Shown: in pieces, positions 6,786 through 62,753 of the stretch | Numbering within the stretch: the first letter of the stretch is position 1 | Layout: each line of letters begins with the position of its first letter | Source of the DNA: a virus | Length of the DNA stretch: 64,000 bases | IMG/VR virus record: IMGVR_UViG_3300028840_002190 | Strand: one strand, 5' to 3' | The notes under the pieces: generated by a model | Told to the model about the DNA's origin: nothing | Seen by the model: the letters and a program-made list of their open reading frames with translations, nothing else | The model's database searches: none | Made by a program: the position numbers and the translations under genes

Positions 6786-6799
6786 AGGTAAAAGAGTTT

Positions 6800-7395
6800 G
6801 GTACTGGCGTTTTTCCATACGCAGAAAAACAGAGGGAGTTACTCCCTCGCACGCTGCACGAGCTCGCGGTACGACCAGGGGTGTCACCGCCACAGCCCGA
6901 GCCGACCCACTGTGTGACCTGCGATCACACACGTGGCTCAAGCCGGGCTACGACGTGACTCCCACCTGACAGCAGTACCCCACGTTCGAGTGTCAGATGC
7001 CGCGCCAAGATTTCGGGACCGACTGGACGAACGACGAAATCTTAGCTGCCCATCTGACACTTTTCTCACTAGGAGGAAAGCAGTACCCCCTGTGAGTTCT
7101 TCGGAGATCCGAGGCCCTCTCCGCGGGAGATCTACGCGATGATCGGACGCTGCGTAGTCTCACCTCTGCGAGGGCCCGGATCTCCGATGAACATCCTAGC
7201 AGTACCTGTGTACCTGAGTTGGCCTCCTCATCCCGCTATCCGCTAAGATGAGGACCCCAACTCAAAGCCTAGCAGTACCATTTTTAGTGCCGGAAAACCG
7301 GGTATACCCCAGCCGGTGAGCTACACGCCGGACGCCTTCGTGTGTGGAACTGAGTGCTCTCGGTTCTGAGCAAGAACGACAGCATAGCGGCACTA
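6800..7395 (+). ncRNA. Candidate retron-like ncRNA, locus 1: msr-like head plus array of long hairpins separated by AGCAGTACC repeats
   Basis: 600-nt gap without a credible ORF. GGTACTG (6800-6806) is complementary to CAGTACC in each repeat. Stem-loops at 6809-6830 and 6832-6848; long hairpins at 6883-6959, 6989-7061, 7097-7190 and 7215-7264, and a weaker one at 7285-7395. Confidence 0.65.
6971..7279 (+). repeat. Four exact direct repeats AGCAGTACC (6971, 7079, 7198, 7271) plus a degenerate copy CGCGGTACG at 6865
   Basis: Read directly from the sequence. Spacings are 108, 119 and 73 nt (106 from the degenerate copy). Each copy is followed by an 8-9 nt (5 nt for the last) unpaired segment and then a hairpin. 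Confidence 0.9.
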
Positions 7396-8991
7396 CTCCT
7401 GCCAGAATTTGAAATCCTTGTTGATGACCTTCCACGCTAGCCACGCAAAGAGGCCAGCGTGGAGGCAGTCATCAGGCTTCTGGGGAGAATGGCGCCAAAC
7501 CTTCCGGTCATTCTGCGTGATGTCTTCGTACTCGTTCAAGATGTCGTTAATCGCGACCCGCATCTCCACCAACGGAGCCCACTCTACTTTCTTTTGCTTC
7601 AAGAGCATGAAGTAGTTGTCGATGAGAGTTGTGCGGTCACCCATGTAGCGGTCAATCTGGTTGAACTTCAAGGCTTTGGCCTGCATACCATACTGTACCT
7701 GGATCACTTTGTGGTGTCCGAGGTGTGTGCGCATGAGGTCATTAGCTAATGCCCCTTCACCTGCATCACCGCAGAACATAGAGACGTGGTACTGCTTGCA
7801 AGTGTATGCGATCTCTTCTACGGCGCTTACAGGGTTAGTTCCCGGGTATACCTTATAAAACAAGCACACGAGCTTCTGATCTCTAGGTCGCCAACCCCAG
7901 ATCCAAAGAACAGTCCTGGATACCCCAGAAGTCCCTCCCCCCGACCAATCAGCGCCCGCAACGATTTGTGTGATGTCCTTTAAGTGGTCTCGCGGGGGAT
8001 ACTGCTCCAGCTTTCTACCTGTGCACAACGCCTCAAGCTCTTCTTGAGAAAGTAAGCGGCTACCAATCTCGTCCGAAACACCCAAGACCTCATTCCGAAA
8101 AGTCGAAAGAGGGGCTTCTTCGTATTTCTGTAAGATTCGCGACCAGCGCTGCTCCGCAACTTGAATTTCGGATGTGGAACGTCCCGCCATTCTCATTGCA
8201 TGTGGGTTGTTACGCGGCATCATCGGCTGACTAATATGAAAACCCTGGAGTGTTTTACTCGGAGCCATATCCACCCATTGGCCATTGAAGGGGTTAAGCA
8301 ATTTTTTACATTTAGGACAGCCGGGGCCCTCTTTTTGGAGTATCTTCTCACTGTCAATGTACACGTAGTTATTACAGCCCTCGCACTTCATCACCCACTC
8401 AGTCTGGGTGCTGAGCTCCCAGAGGTACTGAATGGTATTCTCCATCGTCTTCGGAGTCCCGGCATACGTCTCATACGCGTAGTCAGACTCCGCCATCGTC
8501 TCGTTACCGACAGTGATGACAGGGTCATACAGAATATCCTGGACCTCGTCATACATGTTCCGGTCAGTGGAAGGCCCACGAAGACGTTCAGCATCATCAC
8601 ATCCGTAGGTGAAGAGCATCTCGCTGCCATTCGTGAACTGTTTGTGGAAGACGCGGTCTGCCAAGTCCGTTCGCAGAAACTTATCGTTGATAATTGGGGA
8701 ATAGCGCATCGTTTTACCGATACGCGTATTGGAAAACCGCGTCGTTTGCTCCTTGGAGGGGCTCACGAACATGGTAGAGAAGTGTGGTATAAGACTGCAC
8801 TCGATGATGGAGAAATTCGCTAGCGTAGTAGACTTCGCAACCTGGCGACTAGTCTTAAACAACGTACGCCGATAGCGCCCGTCATAGAACGCACGGTGCA
8901 TCGGCCAATCCGTCAAACGAAAAGGTTTCCCGTCGAGCATAATCCATGCTTCGGCGGTAACGGACAGTAGGGCTGAGCGGGAGTTGCTCAT
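7393..8991 (-). CDS. terL: Terminase large subunit
   Basis: Walker A TSRQVAKSTT, Walker B MYDEVQD, coupling motif YAGTPKT, Zn motif CEGC...CPKC, nuclease GADWSGG and PDDCLHA. Confidence 0.9.
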   Translation of the reverse strand: MSNSRSALLSVTAEAWIMLDGKPFRLTDWPMHRAFYDGRYRRTLFKTSRQVAKSTTLANFSIIECSLIPHFSTMFVSPSKEQTTRFSNTRIGKTMRYSPIINDKFLRTDLADRVFHKQFTNGSEMLFTYGCDDAERLRGPSTDRNMYDEVQDILYDPVITVGNETMAESDYAYETYAGTPKTMENTIQYLWELSTQTEWVMKCEGCNNYVYIDSEKILQKEGPGCPKCKKLLNPFNGQWVDMAPSKTLQGFHISQPMMPRNNPHAMRMAGRSTSEIQVAEQRWSRILQKYEEAPLSTFRNEVLGVSDEIGSRLLSQEELEALCTGRKLEQYPPRDHLKDITQIVAGADWSGGGTSGVSRTVLWIWGWRPRDQKLVCLFYKVYPGTNPVSAVEEIAYTCKQYHVSMFCGDAGEGALANDLMRTHLGHHKVIQVQYGMQAKALKFNQIDRYMGDRTTLIDNYFMLLKQKKVEWAPLVEMRVAINDILNEYEDITQNDRKVWRHSPQKPDDCLHAGLFAWLAWKVINKDFKFWQE

Positions 8992-10644: not shown

Positions 10645-11377
10645 GCTCTAGGAAGTCCTGTCCCATGGACTTAGCGGCGTCTTCCACAAAGACGTAGGTC
10701 CCTGCGAGCCGAGACAGGTTCACCCCAAGGGGGTTCTCCGCAAACTCAGTGTGCTGGAGAGCCCCCTTATCCAACCCCTCCCACGCCTTGCGGACTTCCT
10801 TCCGCAAATTTTTTGCTTCAGGAGGTTGCAAGTCTACGAGGTTATCCTCGGCAAAGGAGAGCTCCTCAGGAGTGGTGATGTAACCTGCGCGCTTCAAGCA
10901 AACAGCAACGTACTGCTGGACATCCTCATCGAACTCCGCGTCCCCCTTGCCCTCGGGATCCATCCTTCGGACAGCGTCTGCCTCGTAGACTGTCCACGCC
11001 ATTTCCGCAGGGTGACACTCCTGAATCGCATCGGGGTTACTAATATTCCCCACAAAAGCGTGGACAGTATTCTCGAACACAATGTGGTCCCAGAAGAATT
11101 GCGGGTTGACGATGAGGGCGATAACCGCCTGGAGCTTGTCACGGTTGACGAGGCTCAAGTCGAGACCGTCTTTCTCCATCGTTATCCAGAGAGTCTCCGG
11201 CTCCCAAGAAAGCATCTCCAAACCATAAACGTTGCGCGCCGCGGTGTAGAGAGATCCTGCGCTACGCTCATCCGTTGAACTCTTGAGAAATTCTAGAGAA
11301 CGCGCCCTAGAAGTCGCAGGAAGAGACTCCGGGATCGCAGCTACGCTACTTGCGAGTTTTTCTAAGAGTTCATTCAT
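10631..11377 (-). CDS. Hypothetical protein, possibly virion morphogenesis
   Basis: 248-aa ORF whose start overlaps the upstream gene's stop (ATGA-type coupling); normal protein composition. Confidence 0.7.
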   Translation of the reverse strand: MNELLEKLASSVAAIPESLPATSRARSLEFLKSSTDERSAGSLYTAARNVYGLEMLSWEPETLWITMEKDGLDLSLVNRDKLQAVIALIVNPQFFWDHIVFENTVHAFVGNISNPDAIQECHPAEMAWTVYEADAVRRMDPEGKGDAEFDEDVQQYVAVCLKRAGYITTPEELSFAEDNLVDLQPPEAKNLRKEVRKAWEGLDKGALQHTEFAENPLGVNLSRLAGTYVFVEDAAKSMGQDFLELKGV

Positions 11378-12381
11378 ACGTAGGAGGAGAGTTGCTTTTG
11401 CGCAATGGCCTTCACGTCATCAGGAAGCGTGGGAAGAAGCTGCATCAAAGCTTCCGGGTTAACAGTCTCCCCGTCACTGGAAATCTCGGAAGCCACGTTA
11501 TCCCCCAGCAGGTCCTTCCAAAACGTAAGGGGAAGCGCCGCTAACTTCTGCTTATTGAGCATCATCCCGGTACCAAGCTCCAGAGTGTCCTCCGCAAGCT
11601 TCTCCGAATTGAAGACAGTCTGAATCGGATCTGGAAGCTTACGACCGTAAAGACGTGTAAGCCCGGCTTCCTTGTCCAGCTCGTGAATCGCGCTGGCTAA
11701 TTTAGTCTGAATCTCTCTGTCATGAAACTCAGGAGCAACACCCTCGAGTTCCTGGGATATTTTGTCAAACGCATCCGAGAAAACGGTGCCCCGAGTCACT
11801 TCCCTTCGCGCACCCAGCCAGTCTTTTAGGCGCTGAGTACTGGTAAGCGTAAAACCGGCCAGTTTCTCGGTAGAAGGATGTAATGTGACTCCAAATTCCT
11901 TTGCGAGTTTGCAAAGCTGGAACATCCCAGAAGCCCGATCCTCTACAGTAAGAGTCGGGTAAATCTCACGGATACGAGTTTCCGCCAACTTGACATCTTC
12001 CGCGGTCTTCACCAGGAAGCGCTGTTGTTCAGGAAATACGTAGCGCTCTTCCGCAGACGCAGTCTTCTCGGCGGACGCTACGTAGATGTCGTCGTCAAGC
12101 TCGTAGACTTCCGCCGCTTTCTCCAGCATCTCATCAACTTCGCGAGGAACCGCGGACGCAAGCTTTCGATAGCCCAAGGAAAGCGCCGCGTGCTCTCGCG
12201 TGTGTAACGGAAATCGACGCTGTCCCGGCCACGCAAACGAACTATCGGGGAGATCCGAAAACTCGTCTTCGTCGATGTTGGCAGTCTTGGCCACTTCTTG
12301 CAATGCAGGAAAGCGATCAAGAACCACTCGAAGATGGGCATAACCCGGGTCGCACGTTTGGTCGTAAAGTGTCGTTGTCAT
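11374..12381 (-). CDS. Putative head-associated protein with DUF6582-like motif
   Basis: True start is MTTTLYD at 12381; the track's 940-aa ORF is a shadow of the VWA gene. Motif DLPDSSFAWPGQRRFPLHTREHAALS; KTA/KLA motifs recur. Confidence 0.6.
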   Translation of the reverse strand: MTTTLYDQTCDPGYAHLRVVLDRFPALQEVAKTANIDEDEFSDLPDSSFAWPGQRRFPLHTREHAALSLGYRKLASAVPREVDEMLEKAAEVYELDDDIYVASAEKTASAEERYVFPEQQRFLVKTAEDVKLAETRIREIYPTLTVEDRASGMFQLCKLAKEFGVTLHPSTEKLAGFTLTSTQRLKDWLGARREVTRGTVFSDAFDKISQELEGVAPEFHDREIQTKLASAIHELDKEAGLTRLYGRKLPDPIQTVFNSEKLAEDTLELGTGMMLNKQKLAALPLTFWKDLLGDNVASEISSDGETVNPEALMQLLPTLPDDVKAIAQKQLSSYV

Positions 12382-12441
12382 ATTGTCCCTCAAACCGCGT
12401 GGTAGTGAAACACACCTCATTATACGGCAGGAGGAAATGGA

Positions 12442-14070
12442 ATGCAAAACAACCAACAATCGCCAGCGGAAGCCCTCTCTCAGGTCCTCCAATGGGCTTG
12501 CTCCCCTCGCGGAGGCAACAACTTCTGGGGCCGCATCTTGAACGGTTGCGGTCGACGGGCTATTCCAGGTCTGGGAACCGCTGCGATCTCCCTCACTCGA
12601 GAGGGAAAATTCATGTTCCTCTGGGACCCGGAGTTCTTCGTGAAGATTCCGATGCCCCTCCGGATCATGGTCGTCATCCACGAAGCGGCCCACATCGTCC
12701 TGTCGCATGTCGAGCGGAGCCTGCACATGAAGCAGATCTGCAGCGCCAACGACTACCAGTGGAACCAACTGTCCCCGCTCATCAACTTTGCACAAGACAT
12801 GGCCGCCAACGACATTGCCCTCCGCGCTCTCGTCGATCTCGGCAACTTCAGAGAATACAAGAAAGAGCTCCTGTTCCCTGAGAACCCCCCTTGGAACTTC
12901 CCCCAGGGCAAGTCGTTCGAAGAGTACCTGAAGATGCTCATCGACAAGTGCAAAGAAGACGGCTTCGACCCCAACAAGCAAGAGACCGACGGGGAAGGGA
13001 ACGCTATTGTCGAAGTCTACGGAGTCCCTCTGCCGATGCCTAGCAGCAACGACGACGGAGACGGAGACGGAGACGATCAGCAACAGGGTCAGGGTCAGGG
13101 TCAGGGTCAGGGTCAGGGTCAGGGTCAGGGACAACCGCAGAAAGGCCAGTCCGGAAGTGGGGGCGGAGGTACTCAGCAGCAGCCGGACAAGGACGGAAAG
13201 TTCCCTGTCAACGAGGCTCCTCAGTGGCTCAAGGACCGCCGGAAGAACATGATGCCCCAGCACATCGACTGGCAGCAGATGGCCGACAGCATGACCGACG
13301 CCGAAATCGAGCGCATTCAAGAGCGTGCACGTCGGGAGTCGAAGAAGATCGTCAAGAAGGCCGCGCAACAGACCGTGAAGGGTCGTGGGACGATTCCGGG
13401 ACAGTTGCAATCCGTCATCGATGAACTGCTCAACGAGCCGTCGATCCCTTGGCACGAAGTCTTCAAGAACCTTCTCCGTTCCTCCATCTCCTCCAAGCTC
13501 AACGAATCGACTGCGTGGCCGCACATGGGGCTGCTTGCCGGGTGTGAAGGGCAAGGCATCGAACCGTTCCCCGGCGTACAGAAGGACTTCGAGTTCTTCG
13601 TCACAGTCGCCATCGACACATCCGGGTCGGTCTCCGACGATGATTTCATCAAGTTCATGTCTGAGATCCAGGGATTGATGAAGATGAACAAGACCGTCAC
13701 GACGCGGGTCATGCTCTACGACGCAGCCATCCAGCGGGAGTTCCTCATCGAACCGGACGACGAAGTTACGTATCACTGCACCCGTCACGGATACGGGGGC
13801 ACCAACTTCAGGCCGCCCTTCAAGCGGATGCTCGGACTCGACACGGAGAACGACTGGGAAAACGACGCCGAGAAGCTCGAACAGACGCTCCCCAAGACGG
13901 ACCTCTTCATCCACTTCACAGACGGCTATGCTCCCATCAGTAGCGACGGGGGTGGCGGTCCGATGCCTGAGCTTACTCCGCCGTGCCCGTTCGTGTGGGT
14001 GCTCACCGAAGACGGTCGGGAAGACCCCGACATGGGCGGCATTGTGCTGCAGATCGACTCCGACGATTAG
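12442..14070 (+). CDS. HExxH metallopeptidase-like + VWA (DUF2201-type) protein, MoxR partner
   Basis: HEAAH; MIDAS motif DTSGS, GGTNF, FTDGY; Q/G-rich linker; RBS AGGAGG upstream. Confidence 0.85.
   Translation: MQNNQQSPAEALSQVLQWACSPRGGNNFWGRILNGCGRRAIPGLGTAAISLTREGKFMFLWDPEFFVKIPMPLRIMVVIHEAAHIVLSHVERSLHMKQICSANDYQWNQLSPLINFAQDMAANDIALRALVDLGNFREYKKELLFPENPPWNFPQGKSFEEYLKMLIDKCKEDGFDPNKQETDGEGNAIVEVYGVPLPMPSSNDDGDGDGDDQQQGQGQGQGQGQGQGQGQPQKGQSGSGGGGTQQQPDKDGKFPVNEAPQWLKDRRKNMMPQHIDWQQMADSMTDAEIERIQERARRESKKIVKKAAQQTVKGRGTIPGQLQSVIDELLNEPSIPWHEVFKNLLRSSISSKLNESTAWPHMGLLAGCEGQGIEPFPGVQKDFEFFVTVAIDTSGSVSDDDFIKFMSEIQGLMKMNKTVTTRVMLYDAAIQREFLIEPDDEVTYHCTRHGYGGTNFRPPFKRMLGLDTENDWENDAEKLEQTLPKTDLFIHFTDGYAPISSDGGGGPMPELTPPCPFVWVLTEDGREDPDMGGIVLQIDSDD
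13084..13131 (+). repeat. Hexamer microsatellite (CAGGGT)7 CAGGGA encoding (QG)8
   Basis: Read directly from the sequence. Confidence 0.95.
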
Positions 14071-14085
14071 AAAAGGATTGTTCCG

Positions 14086-14733
14086 ATGACCGAGATTTAC
14101 TGTGTGAAACTCAAGCAGCTGCGGTTGGAGGGGAGAGTATCCGAATCTTTCGACTACTTCCCCTTCGACCGCTTCTATCTTGTTCCGGCGGATCACAAGC
14201 CCCTAGCTTTGCGGCTGTTCCGCTACAGCTTGATCATGAAAGTCGATGACGTCGTCAAACGGAGTCTCGGCCTTATCCAGTTCACCCGCCGTCGCACGAT
14301 TGGGATCAAACGTAACAACTCTGAGCTAGCATACTCACGAGTTCCGGGCACCGGCATTCCCGAAATCAGTGCGATAAACGAAGGCGAGTGGCTCCTAGTA
14401 GTCCCCACCTACCTCGCCCGGGATAAAGAAATCGACCCGGAAAGCAACAAGCGCGTTACCAAAAAAGTGCGCCTAGCCTACACGCTATCGCAAGCGGTTT
14501 CCAGCATTCACAACCTCAGTGTCCCGATGCCCACAGTAACCCTGCACACCCCCATAGAGAATATCCCGGTACTCTGTGCCATCTGTAAAAACGTGGCGAG
14601 TTACCACGCCAACAAGTGCGCACCTGGGCAGCGCGCTTGTCGTAACGGGATATCGCTCAATCGCCTACCTGTAGACGACGAATTCCGAGAGACCATCGAA
14701 ACTTCTGTGAAAGGGGCAGGTGAGATCGAATGA
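14086..14733 (+). CDS. Hypothetical protein with C-terminal Cys/His cluster, coupled to RT
   Basis: 215 aa; CAICKNVASYHANKCAPGQRAC; stop overlaps the RT start (ATGA). Confidence 0.75.
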   Translation: MTEIYCVKLKQLRLEGRVSESFDYFPFDRFYLVPADHKPLALRLFRYSLIMKVDDVVKRSLGLIQFTRRRTIGIKRNNSELAYSRVPGTGIPEISAINEGEWLLVVPTYLARDKEIDPESNKRVTKKVRLAYTLSQAVSSIHNLSVPMPTVTLHTPIENIPVLCAICKNVASYHANKCAPGQRACRNGISLNRLPVDDEFRETIETSVKGAGEIE

Positions 14734-15899
14734 CTTACGGTTTCCACGAAAGCGTGTTCGAAACGATCACCATCCCTAACACTGAATTCCCGCTCTACGA
14801 TGACTGTACTCTCGCATTCTTCCTGGGGTTCCGGAATAAGACCCTGTGGCACCTCCTCCACAACAAGGAAAACAACTATCGAGTATTTCACATCCCCAAG
14901 AGCAACGGGCGTAAACGCGTGATCCACGCCCCGTCTCCGATAATGCAATCCGTTCTCCACTCCGTTCACGCGCGAATTCTCCTCCCGATGGAGTCCAAAC
15001 TCGGAGACCACGTTACTGCGTACCGTCCCAACAGGTCCATCATGGATGCGGTTGCGCGGCACATCCCCGAGTGCCCGACCTGTGACAGTGTACCTAAGGG
15101 AGAAGTGGCGAAGAAGCACGACTGTCCACGCAAGGGGGCATACATTAAGATGGACCTCAAGGACTTCTTCCCTAATACACGGCGCGCATGGATCCGCCAC
15201 CTCTTCCAGGACGCAGGGTACTCACATCACGTCAGCGGTCTGCTTGCCAACCTGATGACCGTCCCCTTCGTGAACCCTCGCGGAGTACCCGGCGATAACT
15301 ACAAGGGAACCCCCCGGCAGAAGTTCCTTGCGGGAGTGCCTCAAGGAGCCCCCACCTCAGGTGCCATCTGCAACCTCGTCGCCAACACACGCATTGACAC
15401 GCCCCTCCTGGCCTACTTCGAAAAGAAAAACGCTGAGGGAGGACTCCAAGCTCCATGGGACTGGAGGTATAGTCGATACGCTGACGACCTCACCATCACA
15501 TGCGGCAAGGATCTCCCACTCGGCGAGAAGAAACAGGTCGTGCGAGACGTTACTGAGATCGTCGAACGCGCTAGGTACAGGGTCAACCGTTCCAAGACCA
15601 AAATAACTAGCGCGTTTTACCGGCGCAAAATGCTCGGGGTCGTCATGAATCAAAAGCTAAATATCGCTTACGACGAATACCTCCGCATACGCGCCATCGT
15701 ACACAACTGCATGGTTAACGGCGTCGACACGCAGTACGCTCGAGCGGGCAAAGAATCCCCTGAGAAGCTCATCCAGTTTTTACGAGGTAAAGTCAGCTTC
15801 ATCTCAAGCGTACATCCAGGCAAAGGCGAGAAACTGAAATCCGAGCTGGACGTTGCGATCCAGAACTGGAAAGAGAAGAATGACCCTCCACAGCACTGA
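14730..15899 (+). CDS. Retron-type reverse transcriptase (RT domain + thumb only)
   Basis: YRVFHIPKSNGRKRVIHAP, AYRPNRSI, DAVARH (NAxxH-like), KMDLKDFFP, PQGAPTSGAICN, YSRYADDLT, KMLGVVMN (VTG-box position), IRAIVHN; 389 aa with no maturase or endonuclease domain. Confidence 0.92.
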   Translation: MTYGFHESVFETITIPNTEFPLYDDCTLAFFLGFRNKTLWHLLHNKENNYRVFHIPKSNGRKRVIHAPSPIMQSVLHSVHARILLPMESKLGDHVTAYRPNRSIMDAVARHIPECPTCDSVPKGEVAKKHDCPRKGAYIKMDLKDFFPNTRRAWIRHLFQDAGYSHHVSGLLANLMTVPFVNPRGVPGDNYKGTPRQKFLAGVPQGAPTSGAICNLVANTRIDTPLLAYFEKKNAEGGLQAPWDWRYSRYADDLTITCGKDLPLGEKKQVVRDVTEIVERARYRVNRSKTKITSAFYRRKMLGVVMNQKLNIAYDEYLRIRAIVHNCMVNGVDTQYARAGKESPEKLIQFLRGKVSFISSVHPGKGEKLKSELDVAIQNWKEKNDPPQH

Positions 15900-58115: not shown

Positions 58116-59003
58116 ATGCGAGTCCCAATTTCTTTAATGGTCATCACGTGCCTGCTAGTGCTCTTTTTTGGAATCTTTGCAGCACAACCGAGTAACTCGG
58201 AACCGGCTATACTAGAGACCTACCCGCCGGTCTGTGACGCCACCGACGTTTACGCGGACGCGCTCCCGCAAACACTATTCAATGTGGAAGAGATCCCCGC
58301 CGAGAAACCAGAAGTCCTGTTTCCCAAAGATGACGACGTCAAACTCATCGGAAGGCTGACGCGCGGCGTAAAGAAAATCGCCAAGAAGAAGGGTGGCGGT
58401 AACTGGTGGTACTGTGGGCGCATAGTGCAACCTGAGAAGGAAGATGACTTAGCCTTGGAGTGGGCGTACCGTATCGCCTACCTGGCGTGGGAGTACACAG
58501 ACCGAGGGAGTGATAACGGTATCACCATCAACCCCTGGGGTATCTTCGGGGTTATCTCTAACGAGACAGGGTTCGATAAGTGCGCACTCGGTCCGTGGCC
58601 CAGGAAATGGGCGTACGCCAACGGTACCATGAAGCAACGTGGCCGTTGCCTGTCCCACACCTATGCTGACATCAAGAAGACCATGACACACCCTCGGGGC
58701 ATAGAGCGCTGGAAGACAGCCGGTATCGACGCAGCGCCCCTCCACCAGCTGTGGAGGTGTAATGAAAAAGGGATGTGTAAGCCGAAATTCAACAGTCGTG
58801 ACCCCCTCCCGCCCATCACGCTAGATGAAGTCTTCTCCCTCGGTAAAGGATTCGAGTACGGCGTGAGGAAGATGAAGAAGGACTCCATAGACTTCAAGAC
58901 TGACCGCCCATGGATGTACTGGCCAGGATACCGGTCCGAGAGATACGACAAGAAGGTCGTCCGCTGGGCTCGCATGGGAGGAGCCACAGAGGAAGAGATC
59001 TGA
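58116..59003 (+). CDS. Secreted/membrane-anchored lysozyme-like (SLT-type) protein
   Basis: AAGGAGGT RBS; N-terminal hydrophobic signal; GIFGVISNETGF with candidate catalytic Glu; WMYWPG..YDKKV C-terminus. Confidence 0.5.
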   Translation: MRVPISLMVITCLLVLFFGIFAAQPSNSEPAILETYPPVCDATDVYADALPQTLFNVEEIPAEKPEVLFPKDDDVKLIGRLTRGVKKIAKKKGGGNWWYCGRIVQPEKEDDLALEWAYRIAYLAWEYTDRGSDNGITINPWGIFGVISNETGFDKCALGPWPRKWAYANGTMKQRGRCLSHTYADIKKTMTHPRGIERWKTAGIDAAPLHQLWRCNEKGMCKPKFNSRDPLPPITLDEVFSLGKGFEYGVRKMKKDSIDFKTDRPWMYWPGYRSERYDKKVVRWARMGGATEEEI

Positions 59004-59153
59004 CACACTAGGCCGCATATATGCGAATTCTCCCTGTTACAGGGAGGGCCTTTCGCAGCCCCCTTCGGGGGCTCGAGGGACTGAGCTCGTAACGCGTTTC
59101 CACCGTTCTGATGATGAAGCGCGCTAAAGACCCGAGAGTGACAGCTAGTGCGT
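59003..59153 (+). ncRNA. Retron-like ncRNA unit A (locus 2)
   Basis: a1 ACACACTAG (59003-11) + G59012; stem-loop CTCCCTG-TTA-CAGGGAG; AG + a2 CTAGTGCGT (59145-53), 8 of 9 pairs. Confidence 0.6.
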
Positions 59154-59168
59154 ATTTACCGGAGGGGA

Positions 59169-59311
59169 CCCTAACCACTGGGCACTTTTTCACGACCAGC
59201 GTGAATCACGGAGATACTCTGTGGGCCTTCTCGCGAGCTCCGAGCAGCTCGCGTAGGTCAAGTACTGTCCGCCGGACCAGGTCCGGGCGGCCAGGAATCC
59301 AGCCAGCAGGG
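59169..59311 (+). ncRNA. Retron-like ncRNA unit B (locus 2)
   Basis: ...CCACTGG + G59182; TTCACG/CGTGAA stem; CACGGAG-ATA-CTCTGTG; two hairpins; AG + CCAGCAGGG (a1/a2 pairing is only 4+4 bp). Confidence 0.5.
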
Positions 59312-59323
59312 AGGACCCCTCTC

Positions 59324-59488
59324 CTCACTGGGATCAATCAATGCAAATGAGAGAAGTCTCAGCTACTGAGACAGGGTCTCTTCTCGCTTCGCGAGAGAAG
59401 ACCATGGAAGCTCAGCTCGAGCTCGCCACCGACGGGCCCGAGGCGGAGCTGCAGGTGAAGAGCGATCACAAACAAACTAGCCAGTGAG
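59324..59488 (+). ncRNA. Retron-like ncRNA unit C (locus 2)
   Basis: a1 CTCACTGG (59324-31) + G59332; GTCTCAG-CTA-CTGAGAC; 13-bp hairpin 59375-59403; AG + a2 CCAGTGAG (59481-88), 8 of 8 pairs. Confidence 0.65.
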
Positions 59489-59499
59489 AAATCTATCAA

Positions 59500-59665
59500 G
59501 TTGCTTGGATGCGTTTACTAGGCGCAATTCCGAGGTACTCGGAAACGACGCGGCGCCGAGAGAGACTCGGCAGCACGCGTCGCCGGTGGTGGCCGCGGCT
59601 ATCACTGAAACTTGTCCTGGAGCAGCTCAGCTCGAGCAGGCGAACGTGGCGACACAGCAAGCAAC
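59500..59665 (+). ncRNA. Retron-like ncRNA unit D (locus 2)
   Basis: a1 GTTGCTTG (59500-07) + G59508; TGCGT/GCGCA stem; TTCCGAG-GTA-CTCGGAA; hairpins 59546-82 and 59585-606; AG + a2 CAAGCAAC (59658-65), 8 of 8 pairs. Confidence 0.65.
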
Positions 59666-59731
59666 GCTTTTCCCTTCAAAGAAGGCTTAAACTCTGTTAA
59701 CGTGGCTTAAGCTTTTAGAGGAGTACAATCC

Positions 59732-60061
59732 ATGGACGACGCAGACATCAAGTTCGGAAATCGTGAGGCACTCGTAGGGTACGTAGAGACGGATTCCGGA
59801 GGCATCGTCATCGCAGACGGTGTGTGGGGGGACGAGTTCCCTACTGTCTCCCAAGACCGCGTACACCTGAATCTCAATCTCGAAAAAGGACGCATACCCG
59901 TGTTCGGATTCTCTAAAGGCGGCAAACGCTACCTCTTACTGTCCCTCGACGACACTGAGGCTATCCCAGCCATCGAGGGAATTGTAGACGTGACGGACCT
60001 TCCTAAAGAGGAAAAAGGCAATGCGGATGCGGATCGTAGGGATCACCGGGAAGCAGAATAG
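59732..60061 (+). CDS. Hypothetical protein
   Basis: GAGGAG RBS; 109 aa; GYVETDSGGIVIAD. Confidence 0.7.
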   Translation: MDDADIKFGNREALVGYVETDSGGIVIADGVWGDEFPTVSQDRVHLNLNLEKGRIPVFGFSKGGKRYLLLSLDDTEAIPAIEGIVDVTDLPKEEKGNADADRRDHREAE

Positions 60062-61162: not shown

Positions 61163-61913
61163 AGAGAAGAAAGTACAGAACCGTGCACAGGCCAAGGAAC
61201 AAGCAAACCCTCTCCCGAGCGGGCGTGACGGACTGAAGAGCCTACGCGCTTTAGCAGAGTGTCCGATCCCTGATGAAGCCGCCAACGTCAAGAACCTACT
61301 CGACAAGATGCTCAAGCTCGAACTCGACAACGTTGACGAGCAGATGCAAATCGTCGGAGAGGGTATCGCCTCCGTCATCATGGCGGATACGTACTGTGCA
61401 AAATACAAGACCAAGCGACCCGTGGTGCGCTTCGAAGACGACGAGGAGATCCAGGAGCACCACAAAAACTTCCACGAGCTCGGAGAGAAGCTTCAGGCCC
61501 TCCAAATGGAACTCACGGAAGTAGCGCAAGCGGTACAAGAGGCCAAGAAAGGTCGCTGGGAAACCTCCGTCAAGAAATTCGGTCTAGCACCTGAGAAGTT
61601 CACATACGAGCTGGACGAGGAAGAAGGTGTTATCTACCTGGTGGACCTGAAGTGTAACGAGTGCTCAGGGCGTACTCGGGTGCGGAAAGCTCGCCAAGAA
61701 GTAGCTGACCGTCTCGTTGAGTTCGAGCGGGATGCTAAGAAGGAGAAGAATGATGACAGAACAGGAGAGGGAGACGCTGCATCTACAGCACCGGAAGGAC
61801 ATGCTGAAGAGCGCGGAGAAGTCAGCGGTTCAAAGCAAGAAGTTCCTGGCGTGGCTGATCAGCCAGATACTCCTAGCGACGATGGCGATAACGGCGCTGC
61901 TGAAACAGACTAG
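61056..61913 (+). CDS. Hypothetical coiled-coil protein with Gln-rich N-terminus
   Basis: AAGGAGGA RBS before ATG 61056; MQGPPMGMPPG...QQQQHQQQ; heptad-rich middle. Confidence 0.7.
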   Translation: MQGPPMGMPPGLTPQMLQQMQRQMQEQQQQHQQQSEEKKVQNRAQAKEQANPLPSGRDGLKSLRALAECPIPDEAANVKNLLDKMLKLELDNVDEQMQIVGEGIASVIMADTYCAKYKTKRPVVRFEDDEEIQEHHKNFHELGEKLQALQMELTEVAQAVQEAKKGRWETSVKKFGLAPEKFTYELDEEEGVIYLVDLKCNECSGRTRVRKARQEVADRLVEFERDAKKEKNDDRTGEGDAASTAPEGHAEERGEVSGSKQEVPGVADQPDTPSDDGDNGAAETD

Positions 61914-62139
61914 CGCAGGACTAGGCTGGGACCTCGCGGCGTTCATGGTAGGTATCGTCTTTGGGATGGTCGTCTCAACGATGTACTACCTGGGCAAGCA
62001 GGCTGCAGCCGATATCGCCGTCCGCGGCTTCGCCATGGTGGGGAAGATAGCAGGGCTCGCGGGAACTGCGATTAGCAATCTCACGAACTCGGAGACAAAA
62101 AAAGACGGGGATGAAGAATCCCCGCCTTCTGAAGACTAA
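61750..62139 (+). CDS. Two-transmembrane protein, holin-like
   Basis: AAGGAG RBS; two hydrophobic helices and a charged C-terminus. Confidence 0.55.
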   Translation: MMTEQERETLHLQHRKDMLKSAEKSAVQSKKFLAWLISQILLATMAITALLKQTSAGLGWDLAAFMVGIVFGMVVSTMYYLGKQAAADIAVRGFAMVGKIAGLAGTAISNLTNSETKKDGDEESPPSED

Positions 62140-62753
62140 CCACGTCTCCGCACCACAAACGTCACCAGAACCTCCGACCACTTCTCGAACTCGAACCGCT
62201 CCAACTCAGACACTGAGCACCATTGCGTCTCTGCGATCTCCTCGTTATGAGAGATAGCGTCCGGGTCCCCGTGGTAAGTCGCCTGGCGTACCACTCCGAA
62301 GTGTACCCGATCCACGGGAGTGTCCTCGAGGTAGAGGAAGCCCAACGTCACAGGAGCGTCGTAGGGATCGTGAAACGTCAACTCCTCTTGGAGCTCCCGA
62401 TTCGTCGCCAAGTCTATCATCCGAAGACGTCCGAGACGGTCGTCCGAAGGATTGATGTGTCCCCCGAAACCCAGGGACCACTTCCCTGAGAGGCGAGAAT
62501 CTCCGCCCTTATCAGCTCTCCGGTACACCAGGACCCTGTCGTGTAGAGGGTCGTAAACGTAGGTGTATGGGATGATTTGTTTCCACTTCTCGTCCTCCTC
62601 CACCTCCGACCTGTCCTTGAACGCCACACACATATCGAGAGTCATCTGGAACTGTTGAAAGTCAATCTCCGTATCGGTGTAACCGGGGAGATTCTCAAAG
62701 TGCTCCACCGTAGCTGCAGGGAAAACAGCCACCCGCTCTTTTTTGGTTTCCAT
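62136..62753 (-). CDS. NUDIX-family phosphoesterase
   Basis: KQIIPY, GFGGHIN, RELQEEL; GGAGG RBS. Confidence 0.85.
   Translation of the reverse strand: METKKERVAVFPAATVEHFENLPGYTDTEIDFQQFQMTLDMCVAFKDRSEVEEDEKWKQIIPYTYVYDPLHDRVLVYRRADKGGDSRLSGKWSLGFGGHINPSDDRLGRLRMIDLATNRELQEELTFHDPYDAPVTLGFLYLEDTPVDRVHFGVVRQATYHGDPDAISHNEEIAETQWCSVSELERFEFEKWSEVLVTFVVRRRG

What the first reader, a model, noticed from the sequence alone, without database searches (positions are those of the whole stretch)
59030..59544. Recurrent G-NUA-C triloop hairpin as a candidate RT recognition element
Seen: CTCCCT-GTTAC-AGGGAG (59030), CACGGA-GATAC-TCTGTG (59207), GTCTCA-GCTAC-TGAGAC (59356) and TTCCGA-GGTAC-TCGGAA (59528), spaced 177, 149 and 172 nt, plus GAGGGA-GTTAC-TCCCTC (6832). 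The stems differ completely (two are near strand-swaps of each other), while stem length, the G-C closing pair and the loop UA are fixed, and each starts 17-24 nt after the putative branching G. Inference: a shape-plus-loop motif bound by one protein, most simply the RT thumb.
Basis: partly seen in the sequence, partly recalled or inferred. Interest (0 to 1): 0.85.

Follow-up and report, generated by a model that had tools for sequence, protein, structure and literature searches.

The report
Conserved retron RNA docking hairpin
A small RNA hairpin (7-bp stem closed by G-C, three-base N-U-A loop) recurs in every retron-like RNA unit of this uncultured phage, in its relatives and in bacterial retrons with related reverse transcriptases, so it is most likely the handle that this enzyme family grips, though binding has not been shown.

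Summary
All five N6-G-N-U-A-C-N6' hairpins exist at the stated coordinates on the + strand, against 0.32 expected by shuffling. All lie in two gene-free gaps. A sixth, imperfect copy is at 7314.

In about 20 related phage contigs the hairpin recurs in the PolA–TerL gap:
- Stems covary fully (98% paired; 6 of 7 pairs show double changes).
- The closing G-C is invariant.
- The loop is N-U/A-A.

In 38 of 47 copies, a 6-9 nt arm followed by G lies 16-30 nt upstream (two outliers at 36 and 40 nt), and 'AG' plus the arm's exact complement lies downstream. This is the retron a2-G / G-a1 layout.

The window encodes a retron-type reverse transcriptase (RT, 14730-15899), syntenic in all 13 relatives that reach that far. 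The same hairpin sits in the msr position of canonical retron ncRNAs directly upstream of related bacterial RTs in five phyla. The RT is the only protein these loci share with the phage. Known retron RTs (Ec86, Ec73) dock on 8-9 bp, three-base-loop msr hairpins.

Best reading, at about 0.6: this is the RT-recognition hairpin of one retron RT subfamily, multiplied in a phage. Binding, the thumb contact and cDNA synthesis are untested.

Solitary copies lie in the RT operon leader (a bulged G-AAA-C variant at 12403-12420 here), suggesting feedback control. This scan's earlier notes had already flagged the retron-like arrays on this same genome.

The parts
59030..59046 (+). Hairpin H1, CTCCCT-GTTAC-AGGGAG. 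It is the second stem-loop (SL2) of unit 1.
   Evidence: Recovered in the minimum-free-energy (MFE) fold of the unit.
59207..59223 (+). Hairpin H2, CACGGA-GATAC-TCTGTG. It is SL2 of unit 2.
59356..59372 (+). Hairpin H3, GTCTCA-GCTAC-TGAGAC. It is SL2 of unit 3.
59528..59544 (+). Hairpin H4, TTCCGA-GGTAC-TCGGAA. It is SL2 of unit 4. A natural strain variant changes only the free loop base N (59535 G>A).
6832..6848 (+). Hairpin H5, GAGGGA-GTTAC-TCCCTC. It lies 24 nt after the G that follows the arm (T)GGTACTG (6799/6800-6806).
7314..7330 (+). Hairpin H6, CGGTGA-GCTAC-ACGCCG, with one A·A mismatch next to the closing pair. It sits inside unit 7285-7395, whose arms are TAGTGCCG-G and AG-CGGCACTA.
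   Evidence: In the MFE fold the outer six pairs of its stem form but the loop is drawn larger than three bases.
12403..12420 (+). Variant hairpin GGT(A)GTG-AAA-CACACC (bulged, G-AAA-C). It lies in the leader, 20 nt before the ATG of the p542-orf215-RT operon. It has no a2/a1 arms.
   Evidence: Perfect GNTAC copies occupy the same place in L161, L170, L177 and L180; L162 has a perfect G-AAA-C copy and L159/L189 a bulged one like the window's.
59006..59150 (+). Unit 1. Arm CACTAG-G (59006-59012) and AG-CTAGTG (59143-59150) enclose SL1, H1 and longer hairpins.
59176..59321 (+). Unit 2. The arm CACTGG-G (59176-59182) has no exact AG-partner of its own. It either shares AG-CCAGTG at 59479-59486 with unit 3, or is closed by GAGGGG (59162-59167) with CCCCTC (59316-59321).
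   Evidence: The closing stem is unresolved.
59324..59488 (+). Unit 3. Arm CTCACTGG-G and AG-CCAGTGAG enclose SL1, H3 and longer hairpins.
59500..59665 (+). Unit 4. Arm GTTGCTTG-G and AG-CAAGCAAC enclose SL1, H4 and longer hairpins.
6799..7280 (+). One priming head (arm, G, SL1, H5) followed by four AG-CAGTACC partner sites at 6971-6979, 7079-7087, 7198-7206 and 7271-7280.
   Evidence: The same one-to-many layout, with other arm sequences, occurs in L189, L169, L170 and L172.
14730..15899 (+). Retron-type reverse transcriptase (389 aa). It is the proposed partner of the hairpin.
   Evidence: Pfam RVT_1, 1.1e-18. PADLOC RT_XIII 2.6e-58, RT_other 1.1e-50. All PDB sequence hits are retron RTs. 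Present in all 13 relatives that reach far enough.
12442..14733 (+). Upstream genes of the RT operon. p542 (12442-14070) has DUF2201 metallopeptidase and VWA-like domains. orf215 (14086-14733) has four conserved Cys.
   Evidence: No homologues in the bacterial hairpin-bearing loci.

Best explanation
**What it is.** The hairpin is a 6-bp variable stem plus an invariant closing G-C pair, capped by a three-base N-U/A-A loop. It is the conserved second stem-loop of the msr part of a retron-type non-coding RNA.

**Layout of each unit.** Each unit reads: 5' arm (a2), G, small variable stem-loop, this hairpin, one or more long template hairpins, A-G, 3' arm (a1). The two arms pair. This places the G after a2 opposite the G before a1, as at the priming site of classical retrons (as I recall the Ec86 RNA; PMC6868368 confirms only the position of the priming G at the end of the 5' arm).

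**Proposed mechanism.**
1. The retron-type RT encoded at 14730-15899 acts in trans.
2. It docks on the hairpin by shape plus the loop bases.
3. Docking positions its active site at the a2/a1 junction 16-30 nt away.
4. It then copies the template hairpins.

Because the hairpin is a self-contained tag, one RT can serve at least six priming heads in this window.

**Shown.**
- The motif itself, its covariation, its fixed place in the units and its strand.
- Its restriction to these loci.
- Its co-occurrence with one RT subfamily in phages and bacteria.

**Inferred.**
- RT binding.
- The contact surface (C-terminal region Y/thumb, by analogy with Ec86 and Ec73).
- Priming from the G.
- cDNA synthesis.
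For: 1. **Enrichment and confinement.**
   - The window has 5 copies against 0.32 expected, all in gaps and none in coding DNA on the + strand.
   - In relatives, GNWAC hairpins run at 1.4 per kb on the sense strand of the gap against 0.06 per kb outside. For GNTAC alone the figures are about 1.2 against 0.03.
   - A combined hairpin-plus-arms test over the whole window, both strands, returns the five copies plus one likely false hit in coding DNA.
2. **Selection on shape and loop.** In 29 distinct copies, 98% of cells pair, 6 of 7 pairs show double changes, and the covariation score is 0.93 against 0.23 in shuffles. The closing G-C is 29/29. A natural strain variant with 21 substitutions per 1 kb touches the four hairpins once, at the free position N.
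3. **Retron layout.**
   - 38 of 47 hairpins have arm-G 16-30 nt upstream (36 and 40 nt in two) and an exact AG-complement downstream, with arm sequences that differ between units.
   - MFE folds recover the closing stem, SL1, the 7-bp triloop hairpin and long hairpins in five of the six window units; in the 7285-7395 unit the imperfect hairpin is not drawn with a triloop.
4. **The RT is retron-type** and syntenic in all 13 relatives that reach it.
5. **Independent recurrence in bacteria.**
   - The same hairpin lies 350-630 nt upstream of related bacterial RTs, on the same strand, in 10-11 of 66 loci.
   - Of 19 sense hits, 10 fall in a single 500-nt stretch (-750 to -250).
   - Seven of these loci were folded. 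In each the hairpin sits inside a compact ncRNA that folds as a2/a1 stem, SL1, this hairpin and an msd hairpin.
   - These loci group in the RT tree (3 label changes against 8.5 in shuffles, 0/500).
6. **Only shared protein.** p542, orf215 and orf470 have no homologues in those bacterial loci, so the RT is the only shared protein.
7. **Precedent (PMC6868368).**
   - RT-Ec86 needs an 8-bp stem with a 3-base loop of its msr.
   - RT-Ec73 needs a 9-bp stem with a 3-base loop.
   - A C-terminal fragment of Ec86 region Y (residues 255-320) bound its msr stem-loop at about 5e-8 M.
   - The priming G lies at the inner end of the 5' arm.
Against: - No binding, expression or cDNA data exist. No RNA run holds the stretch, which says nothing either way.
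- The ncRNA units lie 7.9 kb and about 43 kb from the RT gene, unlike classical retrons.
- The G context is YUG-G-A, not the usual (U)AGC.
- The RT lacks the retron VTG triplet (it has MLG), and NAxxH keeps only the H.
- Hairpin and RT travel together as a cassette in bacteria. Co-occurrence alone therefore cannot separate RT binding from another role of the ncRNA.
- Solitary hairpins without arms occur in the operon leader.
- Two RT-bearing relatives (L177, L180) show no units in the DNA held.
- The sister phages G003 and G005 (RT 39-40% identical by the whole-record search) show none either.
- Thumb positions shared by hairpin-bearing RT clades (K309, N311, N326) are confounded by phylogeny.
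Confidence: 0.6

Rival explanations
1. The hairpin is bound by a different protein. Candidates are the phage's conserved orf215 (four conserved Cys, translationally coupled to the RT), p542 or orf470, or a host RNase or RNA chaperone that processes or stabilises the tandem units.
For: - orf215 is syntenic with the RT in all relatives that reach it, and has a conserved Cys cluster.
- The four tandem units probably need processing from a longer transcript, because no promoter was found inside the gap.
- Leader copies upstream of p542 would also suit a regulator encoded in that operon.
Against: - orf215, p542 and orf470 have no homologues within 4 kb of the bacterial RTs whose ncRNAs carry the same hairpin.
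- Those bacteria span five phyla, which argues against a host-specific factor.
- The hairpin lies inside each a2/a1 unit, so cleavage at it would separate the arms.
Confidence: 0.14
2. The hairpin has an RNA-intrinsic role in the retron-like RNA and is not a protein address. It could be a fixed stop or boundary for reverse transcription just 5' of the template hairpins, a fold nucleus, or a nuclease block.
For: - The hairpin is 0-3 nt upstream of the first long hairpin in the window units.
- Retron RTs stop at defined sites thought to be set by RNA structure (PMC6868368).
Against: - A purely structural block would not need an invariant closing G-C and an invariant last loop A across phages and five bacterial phyla while the stem is free to vary.
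- Solitary leader copies have no template next to them.
Confidence: 0.14
3. The units are a structured phage ncRNA family unrelated to reverse transcription, and the resemblance to retrons is convergent. The hairpin serves that unknown function.
For: - The units are remote from the RT gene.
- The priming-G context is non-canonical.
- No cDNA evidence exists.
- No Rfam family matches.
Against: The same hairpin and layout occur in ncRNAs directly upstream of bacterial retron-type RTs, and the arm-G / AG-arm rule holds in 38 of 47 copies.
Confidence: 0.08
4. The hairpin is a DNA- or transcription-level signal: an N4-type hairpin promoter for a phage RNA polymerase, or an intrinsic terminator.
For: - A 7-bp stem with a 3-base loop resembles N4 early promoters (from memory).
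- On the minus strand the 6832 copy is followed by a T-rich run and scores as terminator-like.
- Leader copies lie 3-9 nt before a TATA(G/A) box.
Against: - The arms a2 and a1 must be on one RNA that includes the hairpin (covarying arms).
- None of the four copies in the 59-kb gap is followed by a U run on either strand. Only the 6832 copy scores, on the minus strand, one hit against 0.6 expected.
- No giant virion RNA polymerase ORF is in the window; the largest ORF is 1242 aa.
- The motif also occurs in bacterial retron ncRNAs.
Confidence: 0.04

Closest known systems
RT-recognition stem-loops of the msr in Retron-Eco1 (Ec86) and Retron-Eco3 (Ec73) (Inouye et al. 1999, 2004, as summarised in PMC6868368)
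   Same: - A short perfect stem capped by a three-base loop.
- Lies in the non-templated msr part, between the priming G and the template hairpin.
- In the known cases both shape and sequence are needed for RT binding. A C-terminal fragment of Ec86 region Y (residues 255-320) bound its msr stem-loop at about 5e-8 M, and swapping region Y between Ec86 and Ec73 swapped msr recognition.
   Different: - The stem is 7 bp rather than 8-9.
- The loop is N-U/A-A closed by G-C, not UUU.
- Binding is not tested here.
- The element is present in 6 or more copies per genome, on units far from the RT gene.
- It is shared across a whole RT subfamily rather than being private to one retron.
Classical bacterial retrons (msr-msd ncRNA plus RT; Mestre et al. 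2020, PMC7736814)
   Same: - Retron-type RT.
- Terminal inverted arms.
- G at the inner end of the 5' arm, opposite a G before the 3' arm (the opposing G is as I recall the Ec86 RNA).
- One to three short msr hairpins followed by long template hairpin(s).
   Different: - The ncRNA is not adjacent to the RT.
- Units are tandem, and one head can face several 3' arms.
- The G context is YUG-G-A rather than (U)AGC.
- The VTG and NAxxH motifs are not kept.
- The system sits among replication and packaging genes of a lytic-type phage and is syntenic across the lineage.
- No effector was recognised by PADLOC.
Retron-Nex1 (Ne160): duplicated msr-msd copies with no RT within a kilobase (PMC6868368)
   Same: Several msr-msd-like copies are separated from the RT gene, implying action in trans.
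   Different: It is a bacterial chromosome element interpreted as duplication and insertion. Here the arrays are conserved features of a phage lineage, with units of unrelated stem, arm and template sequences.
Undescribed bacterial retron ncRNAs found here (L195/L197; L198, L207, L211, L213, L216, L235, L249, L251)
   Same: - The same hairpin: 6-7 variable pairs, closing G-C, N-U-A loop.
- The same order: a2, G, SL1, hairpin, msd hairpin, G, a1 (folded for 7 of the 10 loci).
- Related RTs, 27-33% identical to the phage RT.
   Different: - A single compact ncRNA directly upstream of the RT.
- Long arms of 10-16 bp.
- Canonical AAGC priming context in the L213 group.
- Different neighbouring genes.

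Membership tests
Retron (msr-msd ncRNA + RT) | RT belongs to the retron/retron-like clade | tested here: met
   The 25 best of 54 PADLOC profile hits shown are all retron RT models (RT_XIII 2.6e-58, RT_III-A, RT_other, RT_outgroup). All 9 PDB sequence hits are retron RTs. The subtype is not resolved.
Retron (msr-msd ncRNA + RT) | Retron-specific RT motifs: NAxxH (region X) and VTG (start of region Y) | tested here: not met
   Aligned to Ec86, RKVTG corresponds to RKMLG, and NNATPH corresponds to DAVARH, where only the H is kept. AV..H and LG are conserved within the phage lineage.
Retron (msr-msd ncRNA + RT) | Complementary 5' and 3' arms (a2/a1) closing the ncRNA | tested here: met
   Exact arms of 6-9 nt occur in 38 of 47 units, with different sequences in different units. 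The arms close the MFE fold of every window unit tested.
Retron (msr-msd ncRNA + RT) | Priming G at the inner end of the 5' arm, usually within (U)AGC | tested here: inconclusive
   A G follows the 5' arm in all 38 units and faces the G of the AG before the 3' arm. The context is YUG-G-A, not AGC. Whether it primes cannot be tested here.
Retron (msr-msd ncRNA + RT) | ncRNA contiguous with the RT gene | tested here: not met
   The units lie at 6799-7395 and 59006-59665, and the RT at 14730-15899. The RT start overlaps the stop of orf215.
Retron (msr-msd ncRNA + RT) | Production of branched msDNA (2'-5' link) | not testable with these tools
   Only DNA metagenome contigs hold the stretch.
RT-recognition msr hairpin (Ec86/Ec73 type) | Short stem with a three-base loop, located in the msr between the priming G and the template | tested here: met
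   The stem has 7 bp including the closing G-C, and the loop has 3 nt. The hairpin lies 16-30 nt after the G (36 and 40 nt in two copies) and directly before the long hairpins. Reference geometry is from PMC6868368.
RT-recognition msr hairpin (Ec86/Ec73 type) | Specific binding by the cognate RT's C-terminal region Y (thumb) | not testable with these tools
   Only indirect support is available. The hairpin co-occurs with one RT subfamily, and the RT is the only shared protein.
N4-type hairpin promoter | Hairpin lies upstream of the transcript start and is used by a giant virion RNA polymerase | tested here: not met
   The hairpin is internal to the a2/a1 units. No ORF above 1242 aa is in the window. 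The same motif occurs in bacterial retron ncRNAs. The rest of the phage genome was not seen.
Intrinsic terminator | G+C-rich hairpin followed by a U run | tested here: not met
   There are no hits in 58900-59800. Only the minus-strand reading of the 6832 copy scores, one hit against 0.6 expected.

The most novel reading that the evidence does not exclude
The hairpin is a portable address tag. It lets a single trans-acting, phage-encoded retron RT find many dispersed priming heads: at least six in this window, some of which face several alternative templates. The same tag in the leader of the RT's own operon gives feedback control of RT synthesis. On this reading a phage lineage has turned the retron, known as a bacterial anti-phage device, into a conserved multi-product cDNA factory, with this hairpin as the common handle.
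Probability: 0.3. Interest if true: 0.85.

Novelty: new variant of a known kind. Interest (0 to 1): 0.68.

Why it matters
**For retron biology.** RT-msr recognition has so far been studied one retron at a time. If the RT docks on this 17-nt hairpin, the hairpin would be a sequence-defined recognition element shared by a whole retron RT subfamily, from bacteria of five phyla to a lineage of large uncultured phages.

**For this phage.** It would explain how one phage RT can act in trans on tandem and multi-template RNAs far from its gene. It would also mark those RNAs as retron-like products of a virus rather than of a defence island.

**For testing and use.** It gives a minimal, testable handle of 17 nt. 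It could matter for retron-based DNA-writing tools, because a short portable tag would allow many templates to be served by one RT.

**For regulation.** The leader copies raise a directly testable model of autoregulation.

Tried and rejected
- **tRNA and Rfam.** The window has no tRNA and no Rfam hit at gathering level. Only noise appears in the gap at E up to 5. The bacterial ncRNA loci have none.
- **Source genome.** No host or whole genome is held for the window. An exact 43-mer is absent from IMG/VR. There is no blastn hit in GenBank phages. A true genome-wide scan was therefore impossible.
- **Relatives through flanking genes.** The 308-aa flanking protein and the helicase gave no relatives in IMG/VR. 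Relatives through dNMP kinase were distant, and their hairpin hits were coding-internal chance matches in AT-rich phages.
- **N4-type promoter idea.** This was my first guess. I dropped it once the a2/a1 arms and the bacterial retron copies were seen.
- **Sister phages G003 and G005** (RT 39-40% identical; complete 187-189 kb records). They have no covariance-model hit and no hairpin with arms. A candidate at G005 76161 lies in coding DNA.
- **L177 and L180.** They carry the RT and a leader hairpin, but no units in the 17-21 kb held.
- **Leader hairpins.** They have no a2-G / AG-a1 arms.
- **RNA evidence.** No RNA holder was listed among public runs. Contigs of four DNA runs give no depth or end information.
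- **62057 hit.** The module test's extra hit at 62057 lies in a probable coding ORF next to a terminator, and I treat it as chance.
- **RT tree.** The careful tree did not finish. Only the quick IQ-TREE result was used.
Full report
**1. The observation**

The window is part of a large uncultured phage genome. It encodes:
- a primase;
- a family A DNA polymerase (PolA, 3819-6785);
- the large terminase (TerL, 7393-8991, minus strand);
- a ribonucleotide reductase;
- a helicase;
- a dNMP kinase;
- tail and head genes.

No whole genome is held for it.

A scan for a perfect 6-bp stem (G·U allowed) around G-N-T-A-C finds exactly these five on the + strand. It finds two unrelated G·U-rich ones on the minus strand. 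One hundred dinucleotide-preserving shuffles of the window give a mean of 0.32, with a maximum of 2.

All five lie in the two largest gene-free gaps, 6786-7392 and 59004-59731. Among the 162 other + strand hairpins of the same geometry outside these gaps, none has this loop.

A sixth copy with one A·A mismatch is at 7314-7330.

**2. The motif is conserved and covaries**

PolA led to two related IMG/VR contigs, L050 and L051. TerL led to 34 related metagenome contigs with 54-87% TerL identity.

In these relatives the PolA-TerL gap again carries the hairpin, always on the PolA-sense strand, with quite different stems.

I built a covariance model from 12 copies, covering the 5' box, spacer and hairpin. 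In 457 kb comprising the window and these relatives it found 32 copies at E up to 0.1, all in the gene-free gaps, and nothing else in the window at that threshold.

On the 29 distinct rows:
- 98% of cells pair.
- Six of seven pairs show changes on both sides.
- The covariation score is 0.93, against 0.23 in shuffles and at most 0.23 for slid partners.
- The closing G-C is invariant.

This alignment was fitted to the model. The plain regular-expression census agrees with it, however:
- Loops are GTTAC 13, GCTAC 7, GATAC 2, and one each of GAAAC, GTAAC and GCAAC.
- The density of GNWAC hairpins is 1.4 per kb on the sense strand of the gap, against 0.06 per kb elsewhere.

So the first loop base is free, the second is U (rarely A), and the third is always A.

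A natural strain variant seen in three other metagenome runs differs at 21 substitutions in 58800-59800. Twenty of these are in the gap. The only one inside any of the four hairpins is 59535 G>A, which is the free loop position.

**3. The hairpin sits at a fixed place in a retron-like unit**

For 38 of 47 hairpins in the window and relatives:
- A 6-9 nt arm followed by G lies 16-30 nt upstream. Two outliers lie at 36 and 40 nt.
- 'AG' plus the exact reverse complement of the arm lies downstream.

The arm sequences differ between units. Window examples are CACTAG, CTCACTGG, GTTGCTTG and GGTACTG. Examples from relatives are GACGTTG, GATGCCG and GTAGTCTTC. The closing stem therefore covaries too. 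Other dinucleotide contexts score far lower, except for one-base shifts of the same signal.

MFE folds of five of the six window units give the closing stem, a small variable stem-loop, the 7-bp triloop hairpin, and then one or more long G+C-rich hairpins. In the sixth unit (7285-7395) the imperfect hairpin is drawn with a larger loop.

In the 6.8-kb gap, one head (arm GGTACTG-G, SL1, hairpin) faces four AG-CAGTACC sites. The same one-to-many layout, with other arm sequences, recurs in L189, L169, L170 and L172.

Unit 2 of the 59-kb array has no exact AG-partner of its own and is unresolved.

The hairpin-plus-arms test over the whole window, both strands, returns the five copies plus one hit in a probable coding ORF.

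**4. The reverse transcriptase**

- ORF 14730-15899 matches Pfam RVT_1.
- In PADLOC, the 25 best of its 54 profile hits are all retron RT models, the best being RT_XIII at 2.6e-58.
- All PDB sequence hits are retron RTs: Ec86, Ec67, Ec83 and Kva2.
- It lacks the VTG triplet (it has MLG) and most of NAxxH.
- Its start overlaps the stop of orf215, so there is no room for an adjacent ncRNA.

The long 940-aa minus-strand ORF upstream is only partly real. The true upstream gene is p542 (12442-14070), with DUF2201 metallopeptidase and VWA-like domains.

The order p542, orf215, RT, orf470 is kept in relatives. All 13 contigs that reach far enough carry the RT at 40-70% identity.

**5. Independent test in bacteria**

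A scan of one genome per prokaryote species with the RT gave 66 loci at up to 33% identity. A blind hairpin scan of these found the same motif in 10-11 loci. It lies on the RT strand, 350-630 nt before the RT match:
- CATAGT-GCTAC/GATAC-GCTATG in L195 and L197.
- TCCGGG-GTTAC-CCCGGG and close variants in L198, L207, L211, L213, L216, L235, L249 and L251.
- A 5-bp copy in L208.

Of 19 sense-strand hits in 507 kb, 10 fall in the single stretch from -750 to -250.

I folded seven of these loci. Each hairpin lies inside a compact ncRNA that folds as a long a2/a1 stem, SL1, this hairpin and a long msd-type hairpin. The L213 group has the canonical AAGC priming context, and a G precedes a1.

By PADLOC, the L213 RT is RT_other/RT_outgroup (1e-153 / 1e-144), and the L195 RT is RT_XIII (1e-105).

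In a quick maximum-likelihood tree:
- The phage RTs form one clade (support 89).
- Their sister group is three other viral RTs (98).
- L195 and L197 come next, with weak support (69).
- Seven hairpin-bearing loci form their own clade (99) together with L220. L220 has a 7-bp stem with a UAC loop at the same place.
- The hairpin label needs 3 changes, against 8.5 in shuffles (0 of 500).
- The Thermoactinomycetaceae and Myxococcota clades have no such element at a fixed position.

p542, orf215 and orf470 have no homologues in the bacterial loci. The RT is therefore the only protein shared by the hairpin-bearing systems.

**6. Comparison with what is known**

The review PMC6868368 states the following:
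[quoted passage not shown] - A C-terminal fragment of Ec86 region Y (residues 255-320) bound its msr stem-loop at about 5e-8 M.
- Swapping region Y between Ec86 and Ec73 swapped msr recognition.
- The priming G lies at the inner end of the 5' arm.
- Ne160 has duplicated msr-msd copies without an RT within a kilobase.

PMC7736814 gives the general ncRNA plan: one to three short msr hairpins, then a long msd hairpin.

The present hairpin has the same geometry and position. The differences are:
- Its loop sequence.
- Its conservation across a whole RT subfamily.
- Its multiplicity.
- Its distance from the RT gene.

I found no paper describing this motif or a phage-lineage retron of this kind in two literature searches. 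That is not proof of absence.

**7. A second context**

In the roughly 75-nt divergent region before p542, the first gene of the RT operon, a solitary hairpin of the same type lies 3-9 nt before a conserved A(A/G)(T/G)TATA(G/A) box and the ribosome-binding site.
- Perfect GNTAC copies occur in L161, L170, L177 and L180.
- G-AAA-C variants occur in L162 (perfect stem) and, with a bulged stem, in L159/L189 and the window (12403-12420).
- No copy occurs in L164, L167, L172 or L175.

The stems differ between lineages. There are no a2/a1 arms. Five of the 20 sense-strand hits outside the gaps fall in this one short region.

My inference is that this is an operator through which the hairpin-binding protein controls its own operon. 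This fits a binder encoded there, but it is untested.

**8. Verdict**

The motif is real, selected and specific. It belongs to retron-type ncRNAs and travels with one retron RT subfamily.

That the RT is its partner is the most economical reading (about 0.6). It rests on co-occurrence, exclusion of other shared proteins, and analogy. It does not rest on binding data.

Rivals:
- Another binding protein or host factor: 0.14.
- An RNA-intrinsic role, such as a stop for reverse transcription: 0.14.
- An unrelated ncRNA family: 0.08.
- A promoter or terminator: 0.04. For this last rival, none of the copies in the 59-kb gap has a U run, and only the minus-strand reading of the 6832 copy looks terminator-like.

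Weak leads only: thumb-start residues K309, N311 and N326 are shared by hairpin-bearing RT clades and rarer in the others. Phylogeny confounds this.

Earlier notes of this scan on the same genome had already proposed a trans-acting multi-template phage retron. I tested their claims about the arms, the four partner sites and the RT type, and I agree with them. The bacterial counterpart, the covariation statistics and the leader copies are new here.

Noticed in passing
window 12403-12420; L161 6882, L170 6932, L177 6808, L180 6858, L162 3769 (locus coordinates): A solitary hairpin of the same type, without a2/a1 arms, lies 3-9 nt before a conserved AATTATAG-like box and the RBS of p542, the first gene of the RT operon. 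It is present in about half of the lineages, with different stems. It may be an autoregulatory operator.
   Followed up: partly
window 11374-14196 (minus) versus 12442-14070 (plus): The 940-aa minus-strand ORF is real only for about its last 335 aa (11374-12381). The opposite-strand ORF 12442-14070 (542 aa; DUF2201 metallopeptidase and VWA-like domains) is the conserved gene. It heads the operon p542, orf215, RT, orf470.
   Followed up: yes
L164, L165, L167, L169, L163, L183, L051 (PolA-TerL gaps); window 6788-6796: A conserved (T)GGTATAA box, resembling an extended -10, lies 7-8 nt before the 5' arm of the first unit in many relatives. This suggests the RNA starts at the arm. The window and L050 have the weaker GGTAAAAG.
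   Followed up: partly
window 58800-59800: A co-occurring strain in three other metagenome runs differs at 21 substitutions plus several small indels. Twenty of the substitutions are inside the gene-free gap and none are in the 204 coding bases before it. The array evolves much faster than its flanks.
   Followed up: partly
window 14730-15899 (RT residues 115-132) and 14086-14733 (orf215 residues ~163-184): The RT carries a lineage-conserved CxxC...HxC insertion between the finger motifs. orf215 has four conserved Cys near its C-terminus. Both look like zinc-binding modules that could touch nucleic acid.
   Followed up: no
L171, L178, L181, L182 (TerL-PolA junction): Some relatives have only 12-43 nt between TerL and PolA, so there is no RNA array there. 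L188 matches the window's proteins at the same identities as L182 and may be the same phage. It still carries the RT, so any units must lie elsewhere in that genome.
   Followed up: partly
L195 3478-3604, L197 2798-2922, L213 3369-3538, L207 3403-3569 and similar: Compact bacterial retron ncRNAs with this hairpin lie directly upstream of RTs in Planctomycetota, Verrucomicrobiota, Acidobacteriota, Pseudomonadota and Thermodesulfobacteriota. No Rfam family matches them.
   Followed up: partly
window 6832-6848, minus strand: Read on the minus strand, this hairpin is followed by TGTTTTTCTG and scores as terminator-like for the incoming TerL transcript. It is a single case and not above the shuffle expectation.
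   Followed up: no
whole window: The pentamer GNTAC is generally over-represented on both strands: 553 against 393 ± 20 in shuffles. This is unrelated to the hairpins and is probably a codon or dinucleotide effect.
   Followed up: no
window 62098-62132: A G+C-rich hairpin flanked by an A run and a T-rich stretch lies between the convergent ORFs 61717-62139 and 62136-62753. It looks like a bidirectional terminator.
   Followed up: no
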